DNA of 56,482 nucleotides, filler included, from Dugesia japonica (Eukaryota), in NCBI GenBank assembly GCA_001938525.1. It is 5 parts of 5 records of this genome, joined end to end, with 100 filler letters (N's around TTAATTAATTAA, not from the genome) between each part and the next. Parts side by side here need not be neighbours in the genome. Positions count along the whole stretch, not along the records: positions 1 to 12,003 come from MQRL01343073.1; 4 more parts are not named here. One strand, written 5' to 3'. The notes below the pieces were generated by a model. The model was not told the DNA's origin. It was given only the letters and a program-made list of their open reading frames with translations, and searched no databases. The number at the start of each line of letters is the position of its first letter. Positions within the stretch are counted from its first letter, which is position 1. Below, piece by piece: positions 1 to 56,433 of this stretch. Both the position numbers and the translations under genes were made by a program.

Positions 1-68
<68 letters not shown>
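1..68. repeat. (ATT)n microsatellite
   Basis: Perfect ATT run at window start. Confidence 0.98.
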
Positions 69-69
<1 letters not shown>

Positions 70-113
70 GAAGATAGATATTTGCGTCCTGGCATCGACC
101 CCCTCCTCCCCTC
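69..113 (-). promoter_or_regulatory. Polypurine tract (99-113) and start of 3' LTR (94 downward, cut off by the ATT tract)
   Basis: Minus-strand GAGGGGAGGAGGGGG-TCGA-TGCCAGGAC lies immediately after the end of the long ORF and resembles the 5' LTR start at 11940. Confidence 0.65.
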
Positions 114-119
114 GCCATC

Positions 120-3100
120 AACTTTTTCTGTTGTTTTGATGTTTTTTAATTAATTTTAAATATGTGTTTTTCGCTTGTACTGGTATACTTTGTTTACAAC
201 TTGATTTTGGTTTCATTTTCTCAATTAGTCCTGGTTAACTACCAATTACTGGTAGCAAAGGTTCAATTTTATCCTTAATTATTTCGATAGCTGGTAGTTT
301 GCTCATGTCAAATGTTGCTATCAGTCTACTTCGGTTTATTATTATGAGTGTTTGTTTAATCAAATATGTAATCGCGATTGCAATTCTTGTGGATGATGGA
401 CCTCCTGCAATTAATCCATCTACTGCTTGTTCCATTTAACTTTTCAATATATCTTTTGTTCCTTTCAAAGCAGGTAATTTTTTAATTAATGGTTCCAATA
501 TTCAAGAAATTTGTTCAGAATTTTCCGTTAATTTTGTACTTCCAATCTACATCTTTAATTCTGGATATATTTTTAATAAAATTCAATGTATTCGTTTTTC
601 CGTTGTCGTTTCTTCTGATTCCCTTTGTTCTAACAATTCTTGTGATACATCTGTTAGTTGCTTATTTTGCCTCACGTTTCTCTTTGATACCTTTGAACAA
701 CCAAAAATAGCAAATGCTGCCTTCTTAGAGAAATAAATAGCGTTTAGCTAAATGAAAAGGAACAATAACAGGTCTGTGATGCCCTTAGATGTTTGGGGCC
801 GAACGTGCGCTACAATGGCCGTAACAGCGAGTTTAATTCCTAGCTAAAAATCGCTGGGTAACCTGCTTAATCACTGTCGTGTCAGGAATAATGGATTGAA
901 ATTATTCCACTTGAACGAAGAATTCCTAGTAAGTGCAAGTCACTAGCTTGCGCTGATTACGTCCCTGCCCTTTGTACACACCGTCCGTCGCTACTACCGA
1001 TTGATTGATTTGAAATTCCATTGCTAGTTGATGATCCCCATAAGTTAGATAATCTTTCTCAAAATCTCCTATCCATGAATGTTTCCGCATCTCTTGTCAT
1101 TTATTTTTGAAATTCATTTTCCGTTGATTCTTCTTCAGTTTTTACATTTTGTAATCTTTCTTCTGTCACTACGTCTGATACATTCATTTCATCTACCATT
1201 TCATCTGCAAATGTTTGTAACGCGAGTGATATTGGTAGTTCTTCATCGATATCCACTTCTTTTGAATTTCAATTTAGAGATGCTTCAATCTTTTGACTTC
1301 TCGCTCCTCTTTCTTTTTGACGTTTTACTTGAGTTATCAAGACTTCGTCATTTTCTTGAGTTTCTGTTCCTTTTTCTTCACTCTCTGTACAAGATGAACT
1401 TCCCGATACTCGTATTGCTGTTTTTGCGGAAATTATTGATTGAGTTGTCCAGACCTTGGTGGAACGTTGTTCAGCCGTAAATCTAGGCTTTTCTGCTAAT
1501 ACTTTTGTAGTTGGTTTCTTCTTCAACAATTCTTTACCCACCACTGGATGTATATATATTTTATTTGGATGCCTCACTTGCACATCCAATGTTCCAATCA
1601 TATCTTTATTTAATAATACCTGATTATTAAAAATAAGTGAATATGGCGGATTGAAAAGCAATTTATTCTTTAATTGTTCCACTGTTTCAAAAACCATTAT
1701 TACTACTCTTGTTTATTGACCTCTTGATTCAATTATTCTGAGAGTAAACTTGAGAAGCTTTTCTTCTTCTATCTCTCAATTTAGCTATTTAGAATTTATA
1801 ATTTTAAATTGCTCCGGCCTCAAATTACATTCCTCTTTTAATCTTGATATTTAATAAGTTAATTCTCTTAACTCTTTTATCGATAAATCGCTGCTGATTA
1901 GTTGATCCAATAATTGTTGCAGTTCTGGTTTTGGAACATTTTCTTATTTAATGATGATTGCATATTGTTGTATTAAACTTTGCATGTTTCCAATATTGTG
2001 TTTGTTTCTTGTTGCTGTTGCTGCTATTGATTTACACGGTTGAATTATTATTGGACACAATTCTTCGCTCGATTAATCTTCTGATCTAGATATTAGTTGA
2101 GGTAGTATTACTGCTATCGTTTCTCGTATATTAATATCTAATTCGTCTATATGTATTTGGTACGTGTAGATAAATTTCATCGATATACAACTGAATCGTT
2201 TTTCTATATAATGTTTCTTTTGGTCTTTTCTTGGTATACGGATTTCTTTCTTGATTATCTGCTAAAAACACGTAAACATCCATCATCAATCCTGGCCAAA
2301 TACCTAAATCTTTAACTGAGTTCTCCTCATTTTCCTCAGCGATCTCTTCCCCACAATATATAACGATAACTTCTCTTTGAGTTGCTAATCCAATTGCCTT
2401 TCCTCTTGGCATTTGCTTGTTAATATACTTAAGTATTTCATTTATTAATTTCTCCCATGTTGTAGTGGTTTTAATCTTAAATTCCTTCTCTGATTCATCT
2501 GGGAAATATATTGTAACATTTAATGATTGCTTTGGTATGTTTTTAGTATTTATTCCCACCAATGTATTAACTAATTCACAGAACATTTTTCTTACAATTA
2601 ATTTCAATTGATTTAATTGATTTATTACTTCTTCTATCTTTAAATTTTGCATTTGTTTATAATTTTCCATTATAACCATTCCTACCTTGGTTAATGTCAA
2701 TCTATATGTTGTTTGGTTTCTGGTATTGAAATTGATGTTTGACTGTCATAATTATTATATACCATAACGTTTTTCTTATACTCTCCGTCTAATGATCTCA
2801 TGCTCTGTTTTGTTTTTCGAAGATGTAGATGTGACAGTACTGAGCCTTTAATAAAAACAATCTCTCGCTTTCAAATAATGCCACTTCAGTCGCACCACCA
2901 GGCTTTAATCTATAGATGTAAATGTGCTCGTTTACCGCTTCTTTATTAAGAATTCTAACTGGTGAACAAATTATATAATGTTCAAGTGATTTTGGCCATT
3001 TTAACCTATTCAATGCTTTTACTAATGCTCCCACCATTGTATTCTTTAATGCTAATTTTCGAGGAATATTTCGGTATCCAAATCGATGATTGTATTTAGA

Positions 3101-5910
3101 TATTTGTTCTTCCATCAAATAAACCATATTCATACAATTGTGTGCGGGTTTTATGGCTTCCATCGCACTAAGTCTATAATTCTCCGTAGTTGACACTTCT
3201 AAAATTTCTTTTTCATATTCATCGATAATATACTTCCATTGTAATTTAGTTGTCACATCTATATGTCCTGGCTCTGTTAATTTTACAATATGATTCATTA
3301 TGGACCAATAAGCTTTTCGATCAATCTCATATTTTCCTTTTCTAGTTCTTTTCATTATTGTTTCGATATGTTCCCTCGTTTGTGATTGACATTTTATTGA
3401 TTTATTCATCGTGTCGTTTGTTACAACTTGATTGATCGCCATTTCCGCTCCTTGTTTTGTATTATCATCATTGTTTACTGAATTCTTTGATACTTTTGGT
3501 TTTACATCTTTTTCTGTAGTTACTCTTTTAGGTGGTTTCTTTTGTCTGTTCAATAAAGTTTATGCTCTCATCGTATGCTTAATAGAATTCTTTTTCAAAG
3601 ATTCAATTATTTTATTTATTGTTTAATACTCAAAATGCATGAACGCTGGTTGTTTAGTTTGAAATAGTCTATCACTTTCTAACAACTTTAAAAACTGCGT
3701 TTTTCCTAGTTGATTTCCATGTACCGAAATGTGTTCTTTAAGATTATTCTGATCAATAACTCTTGATGATGAACATAATACATATTCGTGTAATGGTTTC
3801 GGCCATTGCAGTTTATTTATCGCTGTTATCAACTATTCAACTGTTAGTGTTTTAATTTCAATTTTTCTAATTTAAATTTGAAATCCACATGGTATAGATT
3901 TGGTTTCATCATTACTGGTTGCGTATACGTATCTCTTGATTGATGGCCCCGCCACCTTTGGATTGTCTGTAATCAATCTTTTCAACGGCTCCATTATCAT
4001 GATTTTGTAATACTCAGGATTAGTTTCTGTCATCAATTCCACTTCATACTCTTCCGCTTGAGTCTTCCCATTTATTTTGATAACTGAATCTACATCCTTT
4101 GATTCTACGAATTCAATAAATGGATTCATTATTTTCAAATATGTTCTTCGCTTAATTTCATCTCTCAAATCTTCAGCAAGTTCTAGTTTTTCTTCTTTCT
4201 GTCGTCGAATTGCGAGATGATTTTCCAACGACTTATCATCTAAGGTCTTCTTGGAACGTATCATATTAAAATGTCTAGGATTAGAATTCGTCATTCCTCT
4301 TGCTCTCAACCTATCCTGAGCAATTTGTTGTTCTTTCAATTGTTGCTGCAGATACTCTTGCTCTTGTTTCAATATTTCAAACGTTTTTTGCTCCTGATTT
4401 TGAGTATATTGTAACATATTTATTTGATGCTGAGTTTTGGCTCTAATACTATTTATTTCCTGCTTTAATGCTTTATTTTGCTGTCTTATTCTTTCAATTG
4501 CTGGACATAAATTTGATTTAGCATTAAATTAGTATAGTTTGATTTATTACCGTCATTTCTGAAGCTATTTCTACTAATATGTCCCGACTTATTACATATA
4601 TAACATACCGGTGAATTTTCTTGGAAGCAATGTTCTGCACTATGTCGGAGTTTCTGAAAAATTGTGGAATTGTTCATTGTTTTTACTGGCGGTCTAGATT
4701 TGCATAATCTTACTCGATTTCCAATTTTCCCACAATTTTTACAAGACATATTTGTTGATTTCTAGTTCACTTGTTAGTTGTTATTATTATTCGATTGAAA
4801 ATTGTTCGTTTGTAATTTCTTTTTCCCAGGTGATAGTGACTTTAATAATGGCTAGGGTCTTTGTATGAAATCAGATACCTTCAGAGTATCTTTAGTCTGT
4901 TCATTTTGCTCTTCTATTTGAAACACTTTACCAACTTTTGGTTGAGGAACATCAACATTGTGACATACTCTTGCTGAATTTTTAGCCAACTCTACTTTTT
5001 ACGGTTGAGTATAATGCACATGTCTCTTTACATCTGCATTTCTCAACCCTTTTATAAATGCTCCAATTATAACTCCTTCATTAATATTATCTCCCATAGC
5101 TATTTTCCCAGGTCTTTGCATTTCAGCCGCAAATGCTTGAAATGATTCATCTTTATGCTGTCATCTGTTCATAAAATCTTGCTTCTCCTGAACTTGTATA
5201 GCAGGTGCTTTAAAAATATCTAATAACAACGTTTTAGCTCCTTCCTACGTTTTCACTTCTTTATCTTTCTCAGTGGCTTTATCCCAATAAATAGTTTTAT
5301 TACCTCTAACTAAATACAGGGGTTAACGCTCTGCTGCTGTTTCATCGCTCCAGCAACATGTGTTGATATGAATTTCATAGTTTGTGATGAAATCGAGTAT
5401 TTTATTTGGATCTCCGTCATATTTATCACCACTGAAATCAGTTTTCCATTCTTTGAGTTTATCGTCCATATCCAATTCATGTTGTCTACTATTTGATGAC
5501 ATTTTATTTTATTCTTTGATTTCGTCTTGATTGCTTAAATTTTCTGTTTCGCTCTGTGATTCCGATATTGGTAGAAAATGCGATACAGATTCTGGAATAT
5601 TTGCTTTATTGGTTATTAAATTATCACAATATTTGCTATCAGTTATATTTTTTTCTACTATCTGATTTTGATTTTCAATTTTTGACTCTGTTTCTTTATT
5701 TTCTTTTGATTCTGACGATTCCCTTGTTATTGTTGAAGGAAATCAGTTAGGTGATTGATTTGTTTCTGAGGATATTGGCTTTTTAGATGTCCTTGATTCT
5801 TTTCTTGTAAGTGATGATGCTCTTTGTGCTTTTGCTTTGTGCTCTTTTCTACTTCAAACAGTAGATCTCGTATAATATCTGGGCTTTTCTAAATCCTCAA
5901 TGGCTATCGT
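120..5910 (-). pseudogene. gag: Decayed Gag-containing polyprotein (~1800 codons): N-terminal low-complexity region, retrotransposon Gag capsid, 3 CCHC knuckles, coiled coil, duplicated ~170-aa module, 2 ubiquitin-like domains, acidic region, helical C-terminus
   Basis: Manual translation gives capsid DKYDGDPNKILDFITNYEIHINTCCWSDE...QEKQDFMNR*QHKDESFQAFAAEMQR...AFIKGLRN (~5440-5040; candidate ATG at 5502). Knuckles CKNCGKIGNRVRLC / QKLRHSAEHC / CYICNKSGHISRNS (4749-4486). ORFs 4417-3872, 3832-3623 and 3553-2798 share one frame. The reading continues through 2700-2131, 1697-1269 and 435-235 with stops and frameshifts. Confidence 0.8.
721..1011 (+). rRNA. 18S rRNA: 18S rRNA 3'-region fragment (~290 bp pseudogene)
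   Basis: Universal SSU motifs CTTCTTAGAG, AATAACAGGTCTGTGATGCCCTTAGATG, GAATTCCTAGTAAG and GATTACGTCCCTGCCCTTTGTACACACCG(T)CCGTCGCTACTACCGATTGA, with substitutions at conserved positions. Truncated at both ends. Confidence 0.95.
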
Positions 5911-7747
5911 AGTATAACAATTGTATTGTTCTCTTTAATCTGTAATATAATATTATACTGTCCTTTTCCCTAAAATATAAAATAAAAGCCTTTTGGCCTA
6001 TGAATATTAATTAACAATAAATAATCAATTAGCCTTAATCTTAACTTATTTATTTTTACTATCTCCTCTATTCAGTCTTTAATGTTACAATTAATGCTTA
6101 TTTCCTAGTTTTTAAGACGATACTATCTTTTATGTAAAAATCTACTTAACTCTCATAATTACATCCTACACCTATCATTTTATTATTTTTCAAAAATATT
6201 TAATCTATGTTTACATCTTATGTTATCTATTTCCCTAATAAATGCTAAAATGTTTTTAATTTAACTCAATCTTTTTAGCTGGCGCTTATTCAATTTATTA
6301 TACTAAAATTTTATCTATCGTTTTAATTTATTTATTTATTTTCTCATATTTTATATCGCACTCTGATTATTACAAAATTTATTACATTATCTCTATTTTG
6401 TTTTGCTTCTAATTTTACTTTTTATTTGTCAAGATAATATTTCAAAATTTCTATTCTTCTTCTATTATTCTATTATTCTAAAACTTTTGCGGTCAATTAA
6501 GATTCCTCGGATCTCGTTTTGGGAAGATCCCATCCCAGATTTGAGCAGACATTTCTCAAATCTTAAAAACCCTATACGAACTTCGAGCAGTAAATCCGTA
6601 AGGGAGAACTACTTGCAGTCTAATACGCCAACCGAACTGCTTGGATTGTCAGTCCAACAAAAAAAATATCGCCCACTCACTACTGCTGGTGCATATCATT
6701 GTTCACATTACAAACACTTTCTTCCGGCCTCAAAAGATGAATTCGAGAGAATTTCGAGTTCCCACGCTGCTTATGCGCGGCGGCGCAGCTCACAGTAAAA
6801 CTCCAAAGATACACTTACTGTCAAAACAAAAACATTTTTACCTCGAGGTAGCTTTTCATAAGTCTCAATTGTTTCGTCAATCTTCGTCATTAGACAGCCA
6901 TTCCAGCTTTCCTCATAAAAGATGATCAATCTTTAACATGGTTCATGTTGGTGATTCTATAGTTAACATCTTGTATCTCATAGGTCTTACTGTTTCAAAA
7001 TCGCTCCCATCTCCGTTTATTAAATTTACCAGTATTGATAAAATTTATTCTACCTGTGCTGACTGTCCAATACCCTTCCTGTACTACCTGACTAAGTGTG
7101 ATTTCGATAAAACAATAAAATTAAAATCTTCAAAACTAAAATTTCTTCCAATCTTCCGTTTCCTCATCTTTATAAATATTCCAAAAATTCTCTCAAACAA
7201 ACAAAAAAAGAAACTTATGTTTCTTGTAAATACAAAAGCTTCTTCCTGCAGCACCAAACTCTTCTGAAATTTATCTTTTTAAAAACACAGACCTTCTTTA
7301 TCTTTACCATTTAAATTCAAAATTACGCAATTGCTCTACTTAATATATGATTCTAAAACATATTTCTTAAACTAACAATCTTCATTTTTCAAAGTGCAAC
7401 ATTTTTTAAATTCTCAATTATTTTGTAATCTTCAACTTGTTTGCGATACAAAGAAGCTTCTGTTGAATATTCATTTAACTTTTCTAATTTTCTGTTCCTC
7501 AACTTTTTATTTTTATTTCATGATTTTAATTATTTCCCTTTTTTGTTACAATTTTTTATTAGCAAAATTATATATCTTTTATTTATCATTTTTTCTTTAA
7601 GCCAGTATAACCTTTCTTCATATGCCAGAATATTTTCCTTTAATTTACTTATTACTTATTGCTCCACATCACCTCATCATACTATTAAGTTATCAAAGGC
7701 TCATTTTACATTTTTTATAAATAACTCTTATTTTCACGTTTTATTTA

Positions 7748-8630
7748 TTAGGTTGTCACATATGAAATGTTCGATTACGTAATAGACAATAAAATCAATA
7801 AAAGTCCAATAAAATCAAATTTTATTTTATTATAATAATCACCATAGGATTTTACACCTTTTTGCCATCTACAAACTACTTTTAAAATACCATTAGCAAA
7901 AATATTTTTTTCTCTGGAGTCTATCAATTCAAAAATGGCCATTTTGACATTTTCGCGATCAGCAATGATTTTTTAAAAACCAAAAATTATCAAAATGCTT
8001 AAAAAAATGATAATCTGTTGGAGATAAGTCGGGCAAATATGGTGGATGTGGCAAGGTTTCAATTTTTAAGTCTGTATACTTTTGCAAAGTCTTCTTTGCC
8101 ACATGTGGTCGAGCATTATCATGCAAGAGGATGATTCCTTTCTTATTGACCAATGAAGGCTGTTTAATGCATAATGTTTTGTGCATTAATTCAATTTCAG
8201 AATAGTATTTGTCTGAGTTAATAGTTTTACCTTCTTCTAACAAAAACAAATCTATGACTCCAGCTATAGACCACCAAACTGTCAGCATTGTCTTTTCGGG
8301 TGTAAATCCGGTTTAGAACAGTGTAAAGGAGATTGGTCGGCATCTAATTATTGTGCAAGACGTCTACAATTTTGATGAATAACCCGTTTTTGATCACAAG
8401 TGACATTGCGATCTAAAAAAGATTCCAATTTATTTCGATCCAGCAGCATTTGGCAAATTTTAAATCTATGCGATTTTTTGGAATTATTCAATAAATGAGG
8501 AACCCATTGGTCCATCTTTCTTTTCTTTCCAATGCCTTTCAAATGACGGAAAATTGTTTGACGACTAACGTCTAACGTTTTACTAAGTTGTCGTACTGAT
8601 TGACTAGTGTTTAGTTCCACTTTACGTTTT
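7748..8630 (-). mobile_element. 5'-truncated mariner (DD34D, cecropia/Hsmar1-like) transposase pseudogene
   Basis: Motifs WVPHLL, VTCDQKR, HDNARPH and HPPYLPDLSPTDYHFFKH, with 34 residues between the 2nd and 3rd Asp. Right TIR TA-TTAGGTTGTCACATATGAAATG at 7746-7770. Confidence 0.93.
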
Positions 8631-8987
8631 ATATTTATTATATTTATTCTTTTCTTTATGATCTATCCTTTTTGGATTTAATATTAATTTATCTTATTAA
8701 AGCATTTATTCAATTCAAATTTTTTCTATCACCTAAATTAACATTTATTATCAAGTATTTCAAATTCCGCAAATTTAATTTTCCCCAAAAGTTTATCTGT
8801 TCATCAAATAAAAATTGTCATTTTTATCATTTCATTACTTTATTTTTAGAGATTACCGCCGGTCAAATTTTATTATCAAGTCCTAATTATTAATTAAGAT
8901 TTTTCCTAATACTGCTTAAACATTTTATTAAGTTTTAAATATTATTTAAAATCGTCAATTAATAATAATATATTCGAATAAAAATTC

Positions 8988-9492
8988 ATGACGAGTGGCC
9001 TGCTTTTTATCTCATAACCACCTTTTATCTTTCATGATCAAGTGAGTTGAAACTTAGTTATCAAGCAATTCGCCACTTAATATTTTACGAAATTATTTAT
9101 AATAGGTATCCAAAGATATTAACTATTAATAAAAGGTATTCAATGGTGTTTAATATTAATCAAAAGGTATTCAGTTGTCATCGATTAAAATATATTAAAC
9201 TGCAGCGAATTTATGCAGTTTAATTTTAATTGCTGCATAGTCAAATTTATCTTAATCGTTATCAAGATTCTATGTTATCCCTCATTTATTTCTAATTGTT
9301 ATCATTATTTAAGATTCCTCGTAATACCCTCAGTGCTCGACTCAAGTTTCGGTATTATTTTAAAATCCTTTATTAATAATATAAATAAAATATGATCATT
9401 AATTATGACGAGTCACTTGTCTCTTCATCTCATACTAACTTTTGTCTTTTGTGACCAATTAGCCAGGAATTATAAATCAAGTGATTCATCAT
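8988..9492. repeat. Two diverged ~90-bp direct repeats (8988-9080, 9405-9492), each a fold-back hairpin, in the element leader
   Basis: Both start ATGACGAGT and share TCTCATA, CTTTT(A/G)TCTTT and ATCAAG. The arms of each copy are self-complementary. Confidence 0.7.
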
Positions 9493-10031
9493 TAAATGCT
9501 AGGGACTGCATTGATTCTATCAAAATGTATTTCAATTCAAGGTGAACATTCAAAGTTGAAAAATAATTTTATTCTCGTTTTTAATTATGGTTCACCAACC
9601 ATATCTTTACATTTAAGATAAAACAATTTTATTTCAACACTAATCAATTTAAGCTTTGTTAGCCAATAAATAATTTCAATGTAAGTTTAAGCTGAATCGA
9701 TTTTACCAGAAATAAATCTTTATCAATAAACATTACCTTCAACATTATTTCAAAGTTAATTCATTTTCAATAATCAAATATTCTATTATCTATTTTATTT
9801 ATCATTTAACCACAGCTATACCCTCAACATTTATCACTTTCAACAAAAGTTTCATCACTACTTTATTGACAATATAGTTTTGTCAATAAAATTTTCATAC
9901 GAATAAATTTATTAACGTTAATAAAATTTTCAATAATTTTAAAAGATTATTCCACCTTATTTAACTTTTGATTTAAATAATGAACAGCAAAACAACAAAC
10001 AAAATCTTTACGAAGATAATAATCTATCTCT

Positions 10032-10050
10032 ATTCTTGCTGAGCCCCCCA
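10032..10050 (-). promoter_or_regulatory. Primer-binding site, tRNA-Pro-like
   Basis: Minus strand TGGGGGGCTCAGCAAGAAT resembles the tRNA-Pro PBS (TGGGGGCTC...) and lies 3 nt from the LTR end. Confidence 0.65.
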
Positions 10051-10053
10051 AAA

Positions 10054-11940
10054 TACTAGGATTTTAACGAAATTAAAAAGATGTAATTTCTGTAGGTGCA
10101 CCCTCGTGAAAACCACAAGCATTTTAACGTCGTGTGTCCCTTACATGCTCTCGGCTTGGTTCCAGTGACTCCTTTTTACAGGAGAGTTGTAATCGCTCCT
10201 TTAGTTTGGGTCCAGCAGACTAGAGTGTTACTCCATCTTAAATAATTTGGAGTTACAATTTCTTTTATGATACTCTTTATCCTTTAACAATTTTTGAATT
10301 TAGAGTAATTGTGATACTGATTTTTGCAAAAAAATGAGAAAGATAGAACACAGATTATTCTCGATTTTATAATTAATAACTTATTTATTTAATTATTTAT
10401 TTATTTTGACACTCATTATGTTTTACATAAAATTTGAGTTTTATACATCTCATAAAAACCAGTCAAAATGTTCAATGGCGTTGTCTATAATAATGATTTT
10501 ATTTAACCTTAGTTCATCATAGCGTGCAATTCGCAGAAAATTCATTTATTTTTCTTTCTCATTCGTGTGATTTTATTTACTTTTAATTGTTTAGGGTTGA
10601 TTTAAATGCAAAGTCGCTATTTTATGATGCCATGGGGTGTAATTAAGCCGATATATTCCTTTCTAATAAAGTTTTTATATAACAACTGATAATTCATCAA
10701 ACTTTAAAGAAAAACTAGTAAACAACATTTTAATTCAAAATTTATTTACAAATCCAAAATATTTATTTATACACAATTCTATCTTGACATTTTTCGGCTG
10801 CTTTAATAATTTCCTTGGATTTGTTTTCGTTATAAATGTTTTTCTATTATCACTTTTATCGATTTCGGATACACTTTCTACTGTGAGATCATTCGCATTA
10901 ATTACTAGAATTTCATCTTTGACATCAATTAAATCTTTACTTTTCAATTATCATTTTATTTATTAAAGATATTTATAATCGTAATAAAATAATTTAAATA
11001 CATAATATGAAAATCATTACAAATTTGTTGTCGAAAACTGAATTTGTATCGATTTATTCTGATCCTTAGCTTTAATCAAGACATAGAATATAAATTTAAA
11101 TTTTGATTGAATTTTTAATTTTTAATGAGATTTTATCAACTCCCAAGTTAGACAATTTTAATTAATTAATTATTAATCTAATTTTCAATTTACAATAGAA
11201 TAAATACTTCTATCCCTTTCTTTCGTTGATTAATTTTCCTTTTAGTAATAATTTTTTTTTTGATTTAATTTCCACCGACAGAATGTACCCTCTTTTCAAA
11301 ATATATTTCTTTTCATCTTTTTTATTTCCTCAAAATATAATTTTGCAATCAATGGATATCTTTTTTATATTTTCAAAATATAATTTTGTGAATGCATCGC
11401 TCGATTTTATATCGAGTCGATGCTAACACACCGTGCACACCAAAACAAAAAAAACAAACACTGATTGAGGTAATCACGTGGCTTTTTTCCAGGTTATGTC
11501 GAACAAAAATATTATTATTTTGTTTTTTTAATTTTTGCCAAATCTAGACTATGAGAAAACTATCTCATTATTCTAGATGCAGGCCAAGGAGAAACTCGTT
11601 TCAGCAAAAATAAAAAAAATAATTTATTGATTATTATATTTATTTTTATTATATGTTATTGTTGTTTATATATATTATTATAATAAAATGTTATAATTAA
11701 ATCTTATAATAAATTTATATATCTAAATAAAATAAATACAAATCTAAATATTCTTAAAAATAATTATAATAATGATTAAATTACTACTACATGTAATAAT
11801 ATAACTCATCAAACAATTTTTGTTTTTCAAGCTCATTCCAAAACTAATAAATCTGTACAACCATAACTCAAAATCATCACACACTTTCATACCTTTATCT
11901 CCTTGACCTTCTCAATTTAATAAATACTGGTGTTCTAGCA
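10054..11940 (-). repeat. 5' LTR (~1.89 kb) of the large element
   Basis: Short terminal inverted repeat on the + strand TACTAG(10054)...CTAGCA(11940). Bounded by the PBS on one side and (ATT)n on the other. Contains a candidate promoter. Confidence 0.62.
11394..11480 (-). promoter_or_regulatory. Candidate LTR promoter: TATAAAA (11411-11405) in the loop of a hairpin, with upstream CAAT-like motif and CACGTG E-box
   Basis: GCATCGCTCGAT-TTTAT-ATCGAGTCGATGC hairpin; minus-strand CTCAATCAG at 11461-11469; CACGTG at 11475-11480. Orientation matches the element. Confidence 0.4.
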
Positions 11941-11943
11941 CAA

Positions 11944-11944
<1 letters not shown>

Positions 11945-12003
<59 letters not shown>
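11945..12003. repeat. (ATT)n microsatellite
   Basis: Direct read; abuts the 5' LTR in the same contig. Confidence 0.97.
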
Positions 12004-12103
12004 NNNNNNNNNNNNNNNNNNNNNNNNNNNNNNNNNNNNNNNNNNNNTTAATTAATTAANNNNNNNNNNNNNNNNNNNNNNNNNNNNNNNNNNNNNNNNN
12101 NNN
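12004..12103. other. Artificial contig spacer 44N-TTAATTAATTAA-44N (also 24594-24693, 37335-37434, 46775-46874)
   Basis: Identical 100-bp structure four times; TTAATTAATTAA gives stops in all six frames. Confidence 0.95.
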
Positions 12104-12369: not shown

Positions 12370-15300
12370 TGAAAGCGTTTGGATCCACTGTCTACTAGAT
12401 ACTGACGCAGGAATAAATATCTTAAACGAGAAATGTTTGAAAGAGTTGGGACAAAAACGCATGAATAAGAGTGATTTAAGATTACGCTGCGCAAATAATA
12501 ATTCACTGAAAACGTTAGGGAATGTATCGCTGAAGGTACAATAAGAAAATAGAACAAGACAACTAACCTTAAGAGGTGATGCCAGAAATGATTACGGAGA
12601 TGGAATTTTTAAATAGTTTTGTGTTCAAACCGACCAACAATAACAAGGACGACCAAGAAAAGGAGGAAAACCGTTATGTGTTATTTAGAGACAAGATTTA
12701 AGAGACAAGTGAATTCAGAAGAACCATGGCAGAGAGCAAGCAATACCATTGAGGGGGGAAAAGATAGTCATCCAAAAGAAATATGCAAACAAATGCGGGA
12801 GGCTTTTATGGCGGATAAATATGATATATACCGGACAAATTTAATCAAACATAAGATAAATACAACAGGAGGACCTATCAACGTAAGACCATACAGGCAA
12901 CCGATGAATTTGGAAAAGAAAATAAATGAAACCAAAGAGAATCTTTTTGAAAACGGAATAATTTGAAAATGCAATTCACAGTGGAACACACCATTGGTAT
13001 AAGTGTGGAAAAAGAGAAAAAAGATATCAGGTTATGGGTGGATTTCAGGAGGATAAACGTTATAACGGAAAGACAGGCATTCCCGATGCCAAATATTGAG
13101 GAGATGTTGGACGTGTTGAGCGAAGCGACACTTTTTAGTTCAATTGACTTAGGGAATGCATATTATCAAGTAGAACTCGAGGAAGAATCCCAAGAGAAAA
13201 TAGCTTTTTCAACCNNNNNNNNNNNNNNNNNNNNNNNNNNNNNNNNNNNNNNNNNNNNNNNNNNNNNNNNNNNNNNNNNNNNNNNNNNNNTGAAAGTGAC
13301 AAGAGGAATACAAGAAGCAATAGCATACCTGGACGATATATTGATCTTTTCGAAGTCGAAAGAAGAACACTACGGCATATTAGGAAATATACTAGATTGA
13401 GTGATAGAAGCAAAGCTTAGAATTAACCGGGGAAAAGGCAATTTTATGAAAAGGGAAATAAAGTTTTTAGGACATATAATTGAGAAAAGCAGGATACAAA
13501 CAGATCCAATCAAGATTGAGGCCATTAAAGCGTTTGGCGAACCAAAATGCGTGAAACAATTATGTAGCTTTCTAGGAATATGTAATTATTACAGCAAAGT
13601 CGTCAAGGACTATAAAGCATATGATAAATAGCGATATTGGTAATAATTAAATAGTAAAATTGAAGATCCATTCATAAANAGTAGTCANTAATGAATCATC
13701 ATTCGCAATAACTATTGATTTTGTTAGAGAAAACATTAATAAAAATGATAATAACAACAATCAAAAGATTGAGGCCATTAAAGCGTATGGTTTTAACGTA
13801 GCTTTCTAGAAATAAGTAATTATTACAGAAAATTTATCAAGGACTATTCGTTGAAGGTAAGGAAGCTGGAGTAATTATGCAGTGAGGCAAGGAAAACAAA
13901 GCTGATTTGGTCGGTGGATTTATCGGAAGTTTTTGAAGGGTTAAAGACGGCATTAACATCATCACCAGTGTTAAGATTCCTCGACATGAAATGAGAATTC
14001 ATCGTGGACATAGATGAAAAGTTCAACACAATAGGGGTAGTCTTGTCACAAAAAGATGACAGAGGTAAGGAAAAAGTAATTACATACGAGTTGCATGCAA
14101 TGTCCAGACATGAAACGAGGTATTGCATAACCAGGAAAGAATTATTAGATTTCTATTACTTCTGCGTACACTTCAAACCCTATTTATATGGAAAACGGTT
14201 TACGCTAAGGACAGACCACAAGGCGATCACTTATATGCTTAGCATTAAGAAGCTGATAATGAGCCAATTCCAAACATGGATTAACTTTCTAAGCATTCTG
14301 GATTTCAAATTGGAGTATAGTAAGGGGACACAGAACAGAAACGCGGACACTTTGAGCAGGTTACAGTGTGATAGATGCACCTAATGTTAGATGGAACACG
14401 TAGACTCCAAATCAGAAAATCCTAAAACAAGACTGTTATTAGAACAGGACTATGTGGCGGAAATCAAAACGACTGATAAAACGTGACTAAAGGATGAGGA
14501 GATCGATCAGAAAATCCGGGAGATCCATAAATCTTTGTGCCACACAGAAGCGGAAAAACAGAGGGTTACATAAACGCCAGATTCGCGGAATACAAGTTAA
14601 GAGCAAGGAGAGAAAATTAATAAGAACATGTGTAGGGTACCAGAAAGTAAAAACAGATACGTCGAAGACTAAAGAAGAAACATATTGGTCGGAAAGGTAT
14701 CAACCTTCCGAAGTAGTATTTGTGGACGTTTGTGATTCGTTAAGGGTAACAGAAGGAGGCAAGAAATATATATTGGGAATTATTGACCAGTGTACAAAAT
14801 ACATAAGGCTATTGCTATAAGTAGGCAAGATCAGGTAACAATAAGGGAAAACTTATGGGAGGAGTGGATCCTAAAATTCGGATGTCCAAGAGTGATGAGA
14901 TCGGATTGCAGCAAAGTATTTGAGGCTGAACAGATGAGAGAGTTCGCAAAAAGCTTAGATATAATGTGGAAGATGTCGAGCCCATACCATCACAAAACCA
15001 ATGGACAGATAGAGCGCATATTCCAAACGGTACGAGAACTAATAAAGACTATAATACGAGAGAGAAGAACAGCAAAATGGGCTAAATTGGTGTCAGAAAT
15101 TGAATTTGCATTGAATGCAACTAAACAAAGGACAAAACAAATCAGTCCGACAGAGAAGACATTCGGACGACAGATTAGTAGAGAAGGATGGAGGGGAGAA
15201 AGACAAAAAGACAATACATGGGGGACAAGAGATGATCGGAAAGATAAAGCCAGGATGAGGAGACCATTTGGAGTGGGTGACGAAGTACTCACACAGAAAG

Positions 15301-15610
15301 AAATAAGAGACAAAGGACAAGACCGATTCGAGGGACCATACAAGGTAGGGAGACGAGTGCATGAGAGGCAATATATATTGGTGGGACAGGATGGGCGTAA
15401 AATAACGTGAAACGTGGAGAAACTTAGATCGTTCATAAAGAAAAGGGATGTGAGGAAAAGTTAAAATTTTATCTAAAAATTAACGTTTGTTTTAAACATT
15501 GAAAAATAGAAAAAGTAAGGTGGAAGTAAAATTTAAAAGTTGTAAGTAGTTAAAACTTACTGAATTGTTGAATTACTTAATTTCTTCGATATTTTTATTT
15601 TGAGACATTG
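12370..15610 (+). mobile_element. pol: Ty3/gypsy pol pseudogene (PR-RT-RH-IN) with PPT and start of 3' LTR; gag missing
   Basis: PR LLDTDAGINIL. RT LWVDFRRIN, SSIDLGNAYYQV, AYLDDILIFS. RH RFTLRTDHKA, NADTLSR. IN SSPYHHKTNGQIER, FEGPYKV. PPT AAGAAAAGGGATG then TGAGGAAA at 15451. Confidence 0.92.
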
Positions 15611-37434: not shown

Positions 37435-37800
37435 CTGCAGATGAAGATAGAAGAAAAGATTGGAGTAACAGGATACCAGAGATTGAATACATGATGAATG
37501 CGACAAGGCAAAAGACATGGGAGATATCACCAGCAGAATTAGTATTTGCTAGGAGAATTCACAGAGAACAATGGTTTGACAGCAAAAAAGATAACAAGGA
37601 GTTAATGGAAAAAACACCTATAAAAAGACAATTTCAAGTGGAAGACGAAATATTGATTAAACTACAAACTAGAACAAAAGACAATGAAAGATACGCTGCT
37701 CCATACAAGATCACGGATAAGGTACATGAGAGAAGATATCGTATACGAGATACAAAGGGGAAAGAGCTAGAAAAAAACGTAGAAAAGCTTAAAAAATTTA
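37435..37800 (+). mobile_element. Ty3/gypsy integrase C-terminal fragment
   Basis: IPEIEYMMNATRQKTWEISPAELVFAR..RYAAPYKITDKVHERRY..KNVEKLKKF, homologous to 15100-15430. Confidence 0.85.
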
Positions 37801-39438
37801 GCCACCATTTTGAATGGGCTGGTAGCATTTTCATAAAAAATGAAAGTTTGCATTCCTATTTTACTTTTTAAATTTCCATATAAATCTGAAAACACTATTT
37901 TCATACTACTTGATCAGCGGGGTGAGAGAACTTATTTGAACATATGCAAACATATTTTCGATGAAACAATGTATACGCAGTTTTTGATGCTGATTTCAAT
38001 GGCGCTAATATATTTTAGTATAAATTATTATTTCATTATAATTATAGTAATCCAGTACACTACATCTCTACCTGTGAGAACAAAGTATTTTAAGAAATAG
38101 ATTATTTAAACACTGTATAGGCAGTTCTTAATTTCCGGAGGAATGGTATCAATTTCGAATTAATCCGATCAAAAATGGAAGCAGGGCAAATTTTTAGTCT
38201 TACATCTTTAATAACTTTTACTATCACGTTTGACTGGACTGAAGACTGCATCATGAGATCTTTCATGTTATTTCGAATCCAACAATACCATGAGGATAAA
38301 GTCAAATAAATTATCAAATTTGAACCTATAACAACCGTGTATATTTAGCCTCAATAAGCAAGCTCATTTGTCACACTAAATAAATTTTATTCAATAAGTA
38401 AACAAACAAAGAATTTCATTAATAGAATCTATTAGAAAACTTTTGGTGCGTCAAAATCGAAAAAGGTTTGGGAAACACTGATTACGTGAATTAAAAAGTA
38501 AGTTTAAAATGTTTGTATAAATATTAAAAAAATATGAATATACCACCTCATATAATGTAATCCTTCTTTATAAATATGGCACAATGGGCACTTTCTCAAT
38601 TTAGGAATATTGGCTTCATCCTCATTGTTATGGATAACTTTGAATTCATTTGTTGAATTTGCTAAAATATACTAATTATAAAAAGGAGTTTTTTACAAAT
38701 ATTTAATTTACATTTAGATATTTCATTTAGTTTTAACACAAATTTTGTCTGGGAGCACATAAAATAATTATACACGACGTCTAACTGTAATATAATATTG
38801 AAATTAAAAAGAATTGTTAAAATATTACGAATGAGATACGATCAGAGATTTTGAATTAGTGCATAAATAACGATTTGTTCATTTTGTAACATTTGCCTAA
38901 AAGATTATCAATTTCTCAGAAGTAAGCAGTAAGTTTAAGAAGTGAGTAGAATAATTTTTATTGAGAAGTTCTTCTAATAAAATATTTTTGGAATTTACCT
39001 TTTATAAGAGAAGCATAAAAAATTAGTATTTTAACACATTAAATTTTAACACATTATTATTTTTATTATTATTAAAATGTTTTTATAGATATGAACTTTC
39101 ACATCCTTATACAAACAATACAATTTAATAACCGTAGGAATTTTATTGGCATTATCTTTGATATTGTTATTGAAATGTTTTATATAAGGTGTGAAAGTCT
39201 GAGCCCGTGTGGACACTCAAGTATTGTCGTACATGTTGTTTATTATAATTCATTTTTCTATAAACACTTCATATAAATAACTAATATTATTATCGATTCA
39301 AAGATAATTTATGTCTCTACACAATAAGAATATATCAGTTATTCACGATGTAATAGAATTTATTCTATATGTGCTTTAAAGTATTATGAAAAATCGGCAA
39401 GGACTTTTAGATCAATGCGATACATTTATTTAACAATA

Positions 39439-42665: not shown

Positions 42666-45059
42666 GTTTATTGCATATTTACCTGATTTAATTGTTGATA
42701 ATAAAAGTATCTTTGTAAATAATAATAATTATAATTATAATAATAATAATTTCTCTGCTATTAATAATATATAAGTAAAGTTATAGCAAATATAATAGTC
42801 AGCTTATAATAAATTTAAAAATTAATGATATTGTTACATCATGATTTTTTTGATACTGGAGCTAAAATCAGTGCTATTAAATGTGAATTATTTAAAAGAA
42901 TAGGAAACTTTTCAATAACTAATTCTGATATAAATGTCAAATGTGAAAATAATAGTTCTTTAAAAATTGTAGGAAAATTATATTTAGATGTAAAGCTTAA
43001 TAAAAAAATCGAGAACATTTGTTTTTATGTTGCTAAAGAAAATTACTCGCCTGTTATTTTTGGAATACACCTATTGAATACATTTAATATAAAACTCACC
43101 ATCATTGAAATATATAATGAAGAATCTGTTAATTTAATTAAATTTAAACCCAAAATATTAGAAATTGAAAATATTAAAGATGAAATGAAATTGATAATTT
43201 TAAAAAAAATATGAAAGCATTATAATGAAACATAAATAGTATATTGGGAAAACTAACATTGGTAAACATGAAAAAATAACTAATAGTAAACCAATTGCAA
43301 TTAATCTTAGGCGCCNGCTTTATAATTTAATATATAAGATTGAGTAAAATATTAAAGAAATGAAAATAAATTGGATTATAAGTAAATGTAACTCACCTTG
43401 GAATGCTTTTCTGGTTTCGTAAAAAATGAAACAATAATAAAATAAAACTTCTTAGATTATAGGTTGCTAAATGAAGTTACAGAAAGACCAATTTGTCCTA
43501 TTCCAAACACTGATGAAATGATATGGGTATTTTATATGGAGTCAAATATTTTACCTGCATATCATGGTAATACGTACTATCAAGTAGAATTAACAGATGA
43601 TTCAAAATGTAAAACTGCTTTTTCGACAAAAGGTGCACAATATTATTTTAACAGATTGCTATTTGGAATTGCAGCTGCTCCTGCTATTTTTCAGAAATTG
43701 ATGAATACGGTTTTAGGTCGCCTAAACAAGATGATATTTTACCTAGTTGATATTTTAATTTTTTCCGAAACTATTAAATAACACTATAAGGGAATTGATG
43801 ATACTAAAAAACGTATAAAAGAAGCCCGTTTAAAAATAAGTTCATCTAAATGTCATTTCATGGGAAACGAGATAAAATTTCTAGATAATATTATTAATTC
43901 AAATTGAATTCATTCTAATAACGAAAAAATTGAAGCAATATTTTATTTTGAAACCCGAAAATGTGTTAAAATGTTAATTATTTTATGAAATTTATAAAAG
44001 ATTACACAAAGTATTCAAAATGTTTAGAAAAATATACTGGACAGATTAGTGCCAAAGTTCCTTTCACAATTTGAAGGCTAAACTAACAAAAGCTCCAGTT
44101 TTAGCCTTTCTGAATTTTTCTAAAAAATTAATATTGAATACTAATGTCAGCTTTGATAGTATAGGTGCAGTTTTAAGTCAAATTGATAACGATGGTAAAA
44201 AAAGATATTTTGCTTTTGGATCTAAAGCCATAAGTAAACACGAGCTGGATTATTACATAAGAAATTCCATTCATACAATATTACAAGATAAAACGAATAA
44301 AGATTAAATCCACGTTTGTTTCACAATTTATCAATTTTTTCTATAAGTATTCAAACTTTATTTTACTTTCAAGTTCTTAAATTTCTTTATTTTTGGTTTC
44401 CTTGACAGTTCATGTTTTAATATCATTAGTTTTCATGAAAGTTTGAGGTTTTACTTCTTTTGTATATATCTTGTAAATCTGAATTTAGGTCTTTCATTTG
44501 TAATTTAAACGTTGGAGTTGATATTTCACTTGAGATTTCTTTATCGAGTTCTGAACATTTGCCTTATTTATTCAGTAATTGAAACTCTTGTGATAATTCA
44601 ATTTACTTAATCACTTTATTAATCCTACATTAATAATCACTTTTTAAATATTTTCACACATTTGCATTGTCTTTATGATTCATTCATGATTTAAGTATTT
44701 TACAATCATTAGTAAATGTTGGAGATGATAACCGTTTATTATTATGATTTGAAAGTTTTTCATATCATAATCCTTACAAAATAATTTTCTTAATTTTCAT
44801 TATTTCAACACATTAATAGGCTACAAGAAAATAAACTTCGTCTAAGGAATTGTTTCTTAACGTGAGCGATAGAACGATCCAGGGAAGCGTGATCGATGTT
44901 GAGTCAAATTTAGAGGCGGTTAACACATAATGAAGATACGAGGATATTGATAACCCTTTCTTGCATATTTTATCTGTTAAGTAACCTTTTAAAACCCTAT
45001 TATAAAAATTAATGGACAAAATGCTTGTTCTAATCTATCGACAATCTATTCCGCCTACC

Positions 45060-51881: not shown

Positions 51882-52072
51882 TGTTATGTACATTTTCCAT
51901 TGTTAATCCATTTTGCAAATCATAATTCATATTGTTAGACATTTTTTATTTTAATACTACAAACTATAATTTAATATGAGAATAGATTATTGAATAGTAT
52001 CTTCAAAATCTTTGCCCAGAATTAACTCAATTTCTATTGGCTCAAAATTATTAAATAATAATTATTTCCTCA
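51882..52072 (-). repeat. 3' LTR
   Basis: Direct repeat of 56221-56411, adjacent to the PPT. Confidence 0.95.
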
Positions 52073-55000
52073 TATCCCCCTTCTTAAGAATCTTTCTTAG
52101 TTTTTCCACATTTTTCTAATCAATGTCCATTTCCTCCTTTTTCCGCATAGCGTCTTTCGTGAATTTCTGAATTATTTGATAAGGTCCTTCAAATCTGTCT
52201 TAACTTTTATTTTTTGTTTCTACCTTTATAAGTACAGTATCGTACACTTTGAATTCTCTTTTAATAATGACGTTTGAAGAGTTTTCTTTAGTTCTTTCTG
52301 AAACGTCTGACTAATACCACTTTTTTTCTGTTTATTTTCTATCCAAAAACTATCTTAGCCGGGCTCTTTCCAGTTGTCTTCTGCTTTGTTTTGTTCATTG
52401 TAAATTCTATTTCTGGTTAAAGATCTGCCCAATCTGTTGAATTTCTTTCCTGAAGGTTTGCATTAATCAAATGTTGAATTGTCCTGAACTGTCTTTCAAT
52501 TTGTCCGTTAGCATTATGATGATATGGACTTGAAAAGCAAAGTTTAATATCTAGCTTCTGTGCAAACTCTCTCATAACTCTGGATTCAAACGCTTTTCCG
52601 CAATCTAATCTTATTTCTCTTGGACATCCAAGCCTCAGTATTTACTTTTCAAAAAATCTTTTCGTATCGTTTCCTCGTTTTGTCTAGGCATTGCAATAAG
52701 GATCAGATATTTACTGTAATGTTCAATTATTCCAAGAATGTATTTTCCCGTCCACTTGTTTCTCGCATAGGCCCACATATATCTGTGAATATCACTTCAA
52801 ATAAATTGGTAGTTTCTAAACTCTTTGTCTTCTCTTTAGTTGTTGTTGTCACTATTTTGGTCTTCTGACAACTTTCACAACTTCGAACTATCTTCTGTAT
52901 TTGACTTCACAAATTCTTTGCAATATATTTGTTTTTCATATATTCGTACACCTTTTCAACTCCTGCATGACATAATAATTTATGTATTTCTTCTATTTTT
53001 TCACGTAGTTTGTCATCCGGAAGTTTCATTTTCTTGATTAAATCTGTTTTCTTAGAACTGTTTAAATTATCTTCTTTTTCCTTTTCAATTATATTTAGTA
53101 TTCTCGTTTTAATCTTCTATTTCTTGACCTCTTCATGTGACATTTGACATTATACACACACCTCACATCTTAGTCTAGATAACGTACCTGCATTAGCATG
53201 TGGAATTCTTTTTCTATATTCCAAAACCATGTCTAAACTGATCAGATAATTATTCCATGCCTGGAATTGCAATGTAATTGGTTTCTTCGTCATCATCATG
53301 AAAGATAGAGCTTTGTGATCGGTACTTAGAGTAAATCTTCTACCATACAAGTAATGTTTGAAATGGATACAGAAATAATAAACAGCCAATAACTCATTTC
53401 GTGTAATGCAGTATCCCTTTTCATGAGTTGTCATTGAGTGTGATCCATAGGCAACAACTCTTTCTCTTTCTTCTTTATCTCTCTGTGACAATACTGCTCC
53501 AATCGTATCAAAACTGGCATATGTATCTAATATAAATTCTTTGTTTATGTCCATGAAACACAATATTGGTGCAGTCATGAAAGAATTTTTTAGACCCTTA
53601 AAAGTATCGTTTATTTCATCTGTCCATTTTAATAACTTGTTGCTTGGTCCGCTACACAACTGCTCTAATATCTTTGATTTTCTAGCATAGTTTTCTATAA
53701 ATTTTCTGAAATAATTACAAATTCCCAAGAAACTTCGTAACTTCTTCACACAGTTAGGTTTGCCAAATGTTCTTATAGCTTCTATTTTAGACGGATCAGT
53801 TGTATTTAACACTTACACCATCCCTGCTAATTATGTGTCCAAGAACTTGATTTAACTTTGAAGAAACTGACACTTTTCCGGATTAATTATTAGACCAGCC
53901 TTCATTATTTCCGTCAATAATCTTTCAATTACTTCAAAGTTTGTATATTTATTGTTCGTAAATATCAGTATGTCATCAAGATAAACCATGGCTCCATTGA
54001 TTCTGCTTACTAATTTTGTCATTATCTCTTCAAATGTCCCTGTTGCCGCTGCGATGCCAAATGGCATTCTATTAAAACAATATTGTCAGTGCTTCTTTAA
54101 AAACGTCGTTTTTTCTTGAGATTCAACTTCGAGCTCTACCTGATATTATGCATGTCCCAAATCTATTGAACTGAAATATTTGGCTCAATCTAACTTGTCA
54201 AGCATATTATCAATATTAGGCATAAGAAAGGCTTGTCTTTTCGTTACTGCATTCAATTGTCTAAAATCCAAGCATATTCCTATGTCTTTATTTTAATTTT
54301 TCCAAACACATATCATTTGTGGTATTCCGTGGAGAGTTGCATTTCCTGATAAAACTATTTTTGAAAAGGGTTTGGATAGCTTCTTCAATTTCAGATTCTA
54401 AGTTTAATGGTTGTCTATACGGTTTTACATTGATTAGTTCACTACTTAAGATTATTTTGTTTCTTGTCAGATGTGTGCGTCCTACATACCATTTATATGT
54501 CATAAAAGTATCTTCTTTACTTTCAATTATTTTCAATAACCGCTGATCTTCTTTAATCTAAAAAATATTTAAAGTTCTTGTCAATTGCTCTCCTTTTTTA
54601 ATTTGTCTTCCGAATTTTGCTTCAATATTGCAAATGTAATTTTCGACTTTTTCATTCGTTTTGCTATTGACCTTTTGCATAAGCTGATATCCAAAAATCT
54701 TCTGCATTTCTATTCCTCTTATCAGATCTAGTGTTACTCTTTAAGCAACTAAGAAAGTAATCTCTTTGCAAACTTCATCAATTATCACTCCAATTTTAAC
54801 TTTTCTAACAATCTCAAGTGTATTATTATTTGCACAACGCAATCTTTCATCACTCATTTCTAAATTTACTTCTCGTAGTTAATTAAAACAACTCAAACTC
54901 ATCACGTTAATTCCATTCCCTGCATCTAATAGACATTCTACTTTATTTTCTTGTAACTTAATTTCCCGGTAACACTTGGTCTGCCTATGAATTTATAGTA

Positions 55001-56220: not shown

Positions 56221-56411
56221 TGTTAGGTATATCTTTAATTGTTAATCCATTTTGCAAATCAGAATTCATATTGTTAGACATTTTTTCTTGTACTACATCA
56301 AACTATAATTTAATATGAGAAATGATTGTTGAATAGTATCTTCAAAATCTTTGTCCAGAATTAACTGAATTTATTTTGACTCAAAATTATTAACTAATAA
56401 ATTTTTCCTCA
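56221..56411 (-). repeat. 5' LTR
   Basis: Direct repeat of 51882-52072, adjacent to the tRNA-Leu PBS. Confidence 0.95.
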
Positions 56412-56433
56412 TAATAATAATAATAATAATATA

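What the first reader, a model, noticed from the sequence alone, without database searches (positions are those of the whole stretch)
69..11940. Large pol-less LTR element whose Gag is fused to a long accessory polyprotein with ubiquitin-like domains
Seen in sequence: all cis elements of an LTR retrotransposon (1.9-kb LTR, PBS, PPT, start of a second LTR) bracket one decayed ~1800-codon reading. It starts with a gypsy capsid and three Zn knuckles. Where PR-RT-RH-IN should be, it instead has a coiled coil, a duplicated ~170-aa module and two Ubl-like domains, and it stops just before the PPT. I found no DTG, YxDD, RNase H or integrase motif. Established: Gag-only non-autonomous LTR elements exist in plants (TR-GAG), and giant gypsy elements with accessory domains (Burro) exist in Schmidtea. 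Inference: this is either a non-autonomous family that makes its own capsid carrying host-interacting domains and borrows Pol in trans, or a pol-deleted derivative of a giant element. I do not recognise this domain combination.
Basis: partly seen in the sequence, partly recalled or inferred. Interest (0 to 1): 0.88.

Follow-up and report, generated by a model that had tools for sequence, protein, structure and literature searches.

The report
Pol-less remnant of giant Burro-like retroelement
An old, broken jumping gene, likely from a planarian, keeps its capsid and ubiquitin-like cargo but none of the copying enzymes, and looks like the front part of the already described giant Burro elements, though whether such enzyme-less copies form their own family is untested.

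Summary
The observation largely holds. On the minus strand there is a 1.9-kb LTR-like block, a PBS-like site and a decayed 1,870-codon reading (28 stops, about 158 expected by chance). A G-rich PPT and the first 26 nt of a second LTR follow (15/21 identity, 24 of 20,000 shuffles). No PR, RT, RNase H or integrase is present, while control elements in the window score strongly.

The domain set is not new. PMC6431247 describes planarian Burro ORF1 as Gag, three CCHC knuckles, Smc, SUMO-like PF11976, BCL2, then env and pol. I get the same PF11976 hit (E 1.8e-4). By eye the last 200 codons resemble BCL2; tools neither confirmed nor excluded this. So this is likely the front ~40% of a Burro-like polyprotein, ending where env and pol would start. 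The gap lies just before the PPT, not at 720-1012, which is an antisense 18S rRNA insert.

No second copy could be examined, so family versus one-off deletion is open. The clean end at a domain border mildly favours a helper-dependent family.

The parts
10054..11940 (-). 5' LTR-like block, about 1.9 kb
   Evidence: TG start and imperfect inverted end next to the PBS-like site; start matches 94-69; 3' boundary inferred
10033..10050 (-). PBS-like site starting TGG; resembles a tRNA-Pro PBS (recalled, not tested)
   Evidence: no tRNA gene in the window to compare
5911..10032 (-). 4.1-kb leader with a weak ~105-nt internal duplication (9353-9458 / 8940-9041)
   Evidence: no Pfam family except the mariner piece
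7959..8662 (-). Decayed mariner/Tc1 transposase fragment, a secondary insertion; ends not found
   Evidence: Transposase_1 E 4.5e-13 and HTH hits; no clear TIR
4486..5910 (-). Gag: low-complexity N-terminus, capsid region (~5505-4960), three degenerate CCHC positions (~4750-4560)
   Evidence: Retrotrans_gag E 0.04; zf-CCHC E 1.6e-5, two stretches
4130..4528 (-). Q/E/K-rich, coiled-coil-like segment (position of Smc in Burro)
   Evidence: composition and crude heptad count; no Pfam hit
3602..4120 (-). Duplicated module, copy A; family unknown
   Evidence: 28% over 156 aa to copy B, E 1e-20
2798..3290 (-). Duplicated module, copy B; the C-terminal half looks ubiquitin-like by eye only
   Evidence: no hit in Pfam, PDB profile or Atlas
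2251..2550 (-). Ubl-1, SUMO-like
   Evidence: PF11976 E 1.8e-4 over the full model, below cut-off
1500..1790 (-). Ubl-2, weak
   Evidence: UBL_UBAC1 E 0.021
1014..1499 (-). Basic, then acidic, linker
   Evidence: sequence
720..1012 (+). 18S rRNA 3' fragment, antisense to the element; likely a later insertion; no target duplication seen
   Evidence: Rfam RF01960 91.8 bits, E 2.8e-23; flanks
118..717 (-). Last domain, BCL2-like by eye (BH1-like Arg at 387, hydrophobic helix after it, BH2-like Gly at 243), then 41 codons to a stop at 118-120
   Evidence: Pfam, PDB and fold searches gave no support
99..113 (-). Polypurine tract, 15 nt
69..94 (-). First 26 nt of the 3' LTR, cut off by an AAT array and the end of the assembly piece
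1..68 (.). AAT microsatellite at the start of the assembly piece
11945..12003 (.). AAT microsatellite outside the 5' LTR, then an assembly linker at 12004

Best explanation
This is a dead LTR retroelement copy with capsid and ubiquitin-like cargo but no protease, reverse transcriptase, RNase H or integrase, likely derived from a giant Burro-like gypsy element by loss of env and pol, and likely last copied with enzymes borrowed from an intact relative. SHOWN: the cis signals, the decayed Gag-to-PPT reading, and the absence of pol. INFERRED: (1) kinship with Burro, from the shared order Gag, 3 CCHC, coiled coil, SUMO-like, BCL2-like (about 0.8 on its own); (2) the missing block lay between the BCL2-like domain and the PPT; (3) its RNA would have been primed at the PBS and PPT and packaged with helper Pol, and the helper protease would have cut the polyprotein into capsid, Ubl and BCL2-like products; (4) after insertion at an AAT array it decayed by about 10% and took in mariner and 18S fragments.
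For: Domain order and the same Pfam family (PF11976) as published Burro ORF1. No pol family in 12 of 12 frames scanned, while three control frames give RT, RNase H and integrase at E 3e-27 to 2e-5. Eight pol/gag pieces from neighbouring elements give 0 hits in this piece at E<=1, against 17 cross-hits elsewhere plus 8 self-hits. No env-like anchor: the best hydropathy window is 1.4. The reading ends 41 codons after the BH2-like motif, with its stop 5 nt before the PPT and no env or pol remnant; a random deletion would rarely be this clean, though the locus was picked for lacking pol. A cleavage-like motif [IV][NTFHS]Q[IVL] occurs 4 times, all between domains (23 of 2,000 shuffles; pattern chosen after looking). 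Decay of the ORF (~0.10 per site) fits the LTR mismatch (6 of 21, P 0.2).
Against: No second copy was seen. No Burro sequence was available, so kinship rests on domain order, not alignment. The BCL2 call has no tool support. The Gag and Ubl hits are below Pfam cut-offs. MATH, BIR and ankyrin, reported for Burro, were not found, and the duplicated module is not among Burro's listed domains. Two looser versions of the cleavage motif were not enriched (221 and 1,674 of 2,000). No TSD or full second LTR can be read.
Confidence: 0.45

Rival explanations
1. One-off deletion. An autonomous Burro-like copy lost env and pol in a single event, during reverse transcription or later in the chromosome, and no pol-less family ever spread.
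For: Burro elements occur in thousands of copies, and decayed fragments are reported in a related species, so internally deleted copies are expected. The copy is old and took two later insertions. The locus was chosen for lacking pol. Cleavage-like motifs point to a parent with its own protease.
Against: The break falls within about 125 nt between a domain end and the PPT, with a stop 5 nt before the PPT and no remnant of env, PR or integrase.
Confidence: 0.35
2. An independent Gag-only gypsy lineage, unrelated to Burro, that gathered Ubl domains by itself.
For: No sequence link to Burro was tested. MATH, BIR and ankyrin were not found and the duplicated module is unlisted for Burro. BCL2 is unconfirmed.
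Against: It shares the Gag, three-knuckle, coiled-coil and PF11976 order with Burro in a genome that looks triclad (inference from AT content, AAT arrays and recalled 18S type). The last domain looks BCL2-like at the expected place.
Confidence: 0.12
3. Assembly chimera. Two Burro-like copies were joined near the PPT, which makes pol appear absent.
For: The window is five assembly pieces joined by linkers; this piece ends in microsatellites on both sides.
Against: The piece has no N gap. A 10%-decayed copy is close to unique sequence and easy to assemble. LTR mismatch and ORF decay agree.
Confidence: 0.08

Closest known systems
Burro / GYPSM1 giant gypsy-like elements of planarians (Jurka 2007 and Grohme 2018, neither seen; known here through PMC6431247 section 7)
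   Same: One long polyprotein starting retrotrans_gag plus three CCHC knuckles, then an Smc-like coiled coil, Ubi2/SUMO-like PF11976 and (here by eye) BCL2-like; long LTR and long leader
   Different: About 12 kb instead of over 30 kb; about 1,870 instead of 4,873-5,140 codons; no env, PR, dUTPase, RT, RH or IN; MATH, BIR and ankyrin not found; has a duplicated ~160-aa module and a second weak Ubl; dead
TR-GAG non-autonomous LTR elements of plants (PMC4350172, abstract and outline seen)
   Same: LTR cis signals around a Gag-encoding frame with no pol; would depend on helper enzymes
   Different: TR-GAGs are under 4 kb, encode only Gag, are multi-copy and active; this carries ~1,400 extra codons of cargo, is likely animal, and is known from one decayed copy
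Gag-retaining, pol-less or pol-deleted LTR derivatives of animals such as MaLR and IAP deletion types (recalled, no call)
   Same: Pol-less LTR element in an animal genome
   Different: No ubiquitin-like or BCL2-like cargo known to me in those

Membership tests
Burro/GYPSM1 | N-terminal retrotrans_gag followed by two or three CCHC knuckles | tested here: met
   Retrotrans_gag E 0.04 (below cut-off); zf-CCHC E 1.6e-5, two stretches; third position degenerate
Burro/GYPSM1 | Ubi2/SUMO-like PF11976 inside the same polyprotein | tested here: met
   E 1.8e-4, model positions 1-72 of 72, 21.7 bits against cut-off 23.8
Burro/GYPSM1 | Smc-like coiled coil after Gag | tested here: inconclusive
   coiled-coil-like composition; no Pfam hit
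Burro/GYPSM1 | BCL2-like domain after the SUMO-like domain | tested here: inconclusive
   motifs and spacing by eye (motif names from PMC8998228 passages); no Pfam or PDB hit; model pLDDT 41, fold search uninformative
Burro/GYPSM1 | MATH, BIR, ankyrin motifs (variable among Burro relatives) | tested here: inconclusive
   no hit; decay lowers sensitivity
Burro/GYPSM1 | env, PR, RT, RNase H and integrase in ORF1 | tested here: not met
   with positive controls for pol; no hydrophobic anchor
Burro/GYPSM1 | Giant size (over 30 kb) | tested here: not met
   LTR start to PPT is 11.8 kb
Burro/GYPSM1 | Sequence homology or phylogenetic placement with Burro | not testable with these tools
   no Burro sequence in any library searched; no genome held
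TR-GAG-type non-autonomous family | Gag frame without pol between LTR signals | tested here: met
TR-GAG-type non-autonomous family | Short (under 4 kb), Gag only | tested here: not met
   about 12 kb, ~1,870 codons
TR-GAG-type non-autonomous family | Several independent copies with paired LTRs and TSDs sharing the structure | not testable with these tools
   no genome; no reads or contigs laid; flanks end at assembly breaks

The most novel reading that the evidence does not exclude
A true satellite family of the giant Burro elements. It shed env and pol exactly at a domain border, spread as many copies on helper enzymes, and kept a 1,900-residue capsid, ubiquitin-like and BCL2-like polyprotein under selection. 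That would show the host-manipulating cargo, not the enzymes, is what such an element gains by keeping.
Probability: 0.3. Interest if true: 0.62.

Novelty: new variant of a known kind. Interest (0 to 1): 0.33.

Why it matters
The role of Burro's ubiquitin- and apoptosis-related domains is an open question that PMC6431247 calls worthy of experimental confirmation. If pol-less copies form a family whose cargo stayed under purifying selection, they would be a natural deletion experiment showing which domains act in cis for the element's own RNA or cell. If this is a single deleted, decayed copy, it is ordinary repeat debris. I found no description of a pol-less Burro form, but Grohme 2018, its supplements and Repbase were not available and may already list one.

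Tried and rejected
Homologue searches found nothing: module B against longer proteins, 0 of 900 candidates; Gag, 0 of 356; last domain, 0 of 103 at E<=10; the 577-aa middle piece against 1.84 billion representatives, 0. These blanks probably mean the host's repeats are not in the libraries; they do not show novelty.

Related loci: viral contigs, 0 of 6 pattern matches confirmed. Metagenomes, 1 of 66 (L001, 24 aa), rejected as a chance match in an overlapping frame of an unrelated contig.

Sequencing runs: 6 of 24 listed rows held a small share (0.05-0.19), and no RNA holder was listed. None was laid, so this is no evidence on copies or expression.

Structure: the single-sequence model of the last domain had pLDDT 40.7. 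The fold search gave only generic helical bundles (best Z 7.1) and BCL2 was not listed, which excludes nothing. Atlas on module B: best score 0.80, chance level; the sub-range request did not complete. PDB sequence searches for Ubl-1, Ubl-2, the module profile and the last domain: nothing under E 0.1.

The first shuffle test was mis-specified (p 0.09) and was redone. The idea that the 18S piece is a reverse-transcription template switch marking the pol deletion was rejected because it is antisense to the element. A MATH-type upstream ORF in the leader was looked for and not found. Earlier-finding look-ups gave nothing for this genome or look-alikes. Grohme 2018 is not held.
Full report
Setting. 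No genome is held for this window. The window is five assembly pieces joined by 100-nt linkers at 12004, 24594, 37335 and 46775. The finding fills piece 1 (1-12003), which has no N gap and ends in AAT arrays on both sides. Flanks and target-site duplication therefore cannot be read. The host is likely a triclad flatworm. This is an inference from low GC, AAT arrays and my recollection of triclad 18S; no call names the organism.

Cis elements. On the minus strand a block starts with TG at 11940 and ends at about 10054 in an imperfect inverted copy of its start. A TGG-starting PBS-like site follows; it resembles a tRNA-Pro site from recall only. At the far end a 15-nt polypurine tract (113-99) is the most G-rich of 11 tracts examined. 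Four bases later the sequence matches the LTR start in register: 15 of 21 identical, the best of 1,884 positions in the LTR, reached by 24 of 20,000 shuffles (the first shuffle was mis-specified). Five of 6 mismatches are transitions. After 26 nt the AAT array and the piece end cut it off.

The reading. Five single-frame pieces run from 5910 to 118: 1,868 codons with 28 internal stops, against about 158 by chance. This implies roughly 0.10 substitutions per site. Two LTRs each that old would differ by about 19%, which fits 6 of 21 (P 0.2). In order: a capsid region (Retrotrans_gag E 0.04), knuckles (zf-CCHC E 1.6e-5, two stretches; three degenerate positions by eye) and a coiled-coil-like segment. 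Then come a duplicated module (28% over 156 aa, E 1e-20), a SUMO-like domain (PF11976 E 1.8e-4, whole model, just under cut-off), a weak second Ubl (E 0.021), an acidic linker and a last 200-codon piece. The stop at 118-120 lies 5 nt before the PPT. An 18S rRNA fragment (RF01960, E 2.8e-23) interrupts the reading at about 720-1012, antisense to the element. A mariner fragment (E 4.5e-13) sits in the leader. Both are best read as later insertions. A template switch between co-packaged RNAs would give the same sense, so the 18S piece is unlikely to be the scar of pol loss (inference).

Pol is absent. Twelve frames covering 69-718 and 1014-11941 gave no PR, RT, RNase H or integrase family. Three frames of an ordinary gypsy at 52052-55701 gave RT_RNaseH, RVT_1, Integrase_H2C2 and rve. 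The control frames were shorter, and zf-CCHC was lost in the long frames, so that scan is less sensitive. As a second test, eight pol and gag pieces of neighbouring elements gave no hit in piece 1 at E<=1, against 25 hits elsewhere, 8 of them self-hits. Catalytic motif patterns were not found in the reading. No segment reaches transmembrane hydropathy (best 1.4), so no env anchor is seen.

What it is. PMC6431247 (section 7 read whole; passages) describes planarian Burro/GYPSM1 ORF1 (4,873 aa). It has retrotrans_gag, three CCHC knuckles, Smc, MATH, Ubi2/SUMO-like PF11976 placed before BCL-2, then env, PR, dUTPase, RT, RH and IN, and the paper proposes these elements are integrated proviruses. 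The window shows that order up to BCL2. The last piece has, by eye, a BH1-like Arg at 387 followed by the most hydrophobic helix of the whole reading, and a BH2-like Gly 48 codons later. The order BH1 then BH2 and the NWGR and GGW motifs come from PMC8998228 (passages); a spacing of about 47 in human proteins is recalled. A stop falls inside the BH2-like motif. No tool confirmed BCL2: Pfam and PDB were blank, and the model was too poor to test it (pLDDT 41). MATH, BIR and ankyrin were not found, and the duplicated module has no match. So this is at most a Burro-like lineage, not shown to be Burro-1. With size and pol tested and not met, I do not file it as a Burro member; it looks like a derivative. 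I put kinship at about 0.8.

How it would work. Shown: cis signals, Gag and cargo frame, no enzymes. Inferred: a transcript from the 5' LTR made its own capsid polyprotein; a helper supplied protease, RT and integrase; priming used the PBS and PPT. A motif [IV][NTFHS]Q[IVL] occurs four times, each between domains (23 of 2,000 shuffles), as expected for protease sites. The pattern was chosen after looking, and two looser patterns were not enriched. An earlier AI note on a Burro element in another genome reports a recurring border motif (e1-7879936); its letters were withheld, so I could not compare them. The Ubl and BCL2-like products would act on host ubiquitin/SUMO pathways and cell death, as proposed but not shown for Burro. 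The present copy is dead.

Family or accident. Only 41 codons separate the BH2-like Gly from the stop, with no env or pol remnant. That neatness favours a selected, helper-dependent form (0.45) over a one-off deletion (0.35). The margin is small, because the locus was chosen for lacking pol and deleted copies are common in large families. An unrelated lineage gets 0.12 and a chimera 0.08. No second copy was obtained. Protein libraries were blank, contig scans gave one chance match, and no reads or contigs were laid, so copy structure and expression are untested.

Novelty. The domain combination is published. A pol-less form was not found in paper searches. Grohme 2018 and its supplements were not held and Repbase was not available; either could already list one. 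Other papers seen, passages only: PMC8532177 (BURRO1 is expressed on smedwi-2 knock-down), PMC11410931, PMC13238120. TR-GAG: PMC4350172, abstract and outline. Verdict: a real feature, a new variant of a known kind, interest 0.33. It would rise to about 0.62 if independent copies share the junction and show selection on the cargo.

Noticed in passing
window 720-1012: 18S rRNA 3' fragment inside the element, antisense to it, with no visible target duplication; looks decayed itself.
   Followed up: partly
window 7959-8662: Decayed mariner/Tc1 transposase fragment in the element's leader; terminal repeats not found.
   Followed up: partly
window 6367-7267, + strand: GC-richer, stop-poor frames antisense to the element (222 codons with one internal stop at 6602-7267; 143 codons at 6367-6798), no Pfam family. 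Possibly an accessory ORF on either strand.
   Followed up: partly
window 51882-56413: Ordinary ~4.5-kb decayed gypsy element with 193-nt LTRs (89% identical), set in AAT arrays on both sides; suggests that gypsy elements here favour or seed AAT tracts. Used as positive control.
   Followed up: partly
window 12386-15460, 37440-37871, 42819-44271: Further decayed pol fragments of the same small gypsy group, on other assembly pieces; not linked to the finding.
   Followed up: partly
window 12004, 24594, 37335, 46775: 100-nt linkers (44 N, a 12-nt all-frame stop, 44 N): the window is a concatenation of five assembly pieces, so adjacency across them means nothing.
   Followed up: yes
window 25912-26070 and 30859-31017: 159-nt inverted repeat, 96% complementary, 4.8 kb apart, with a mariner-like frame at 29890-30288 inside; possibly a DNA transposon.
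   Followed up: no
window 2798-3100 and 3602-3901: The C-terminal half of each duplicated module has a ubiquitin-like look by eye; if real, the polyprotein holds four Ubl domains.
   Followed up: partly
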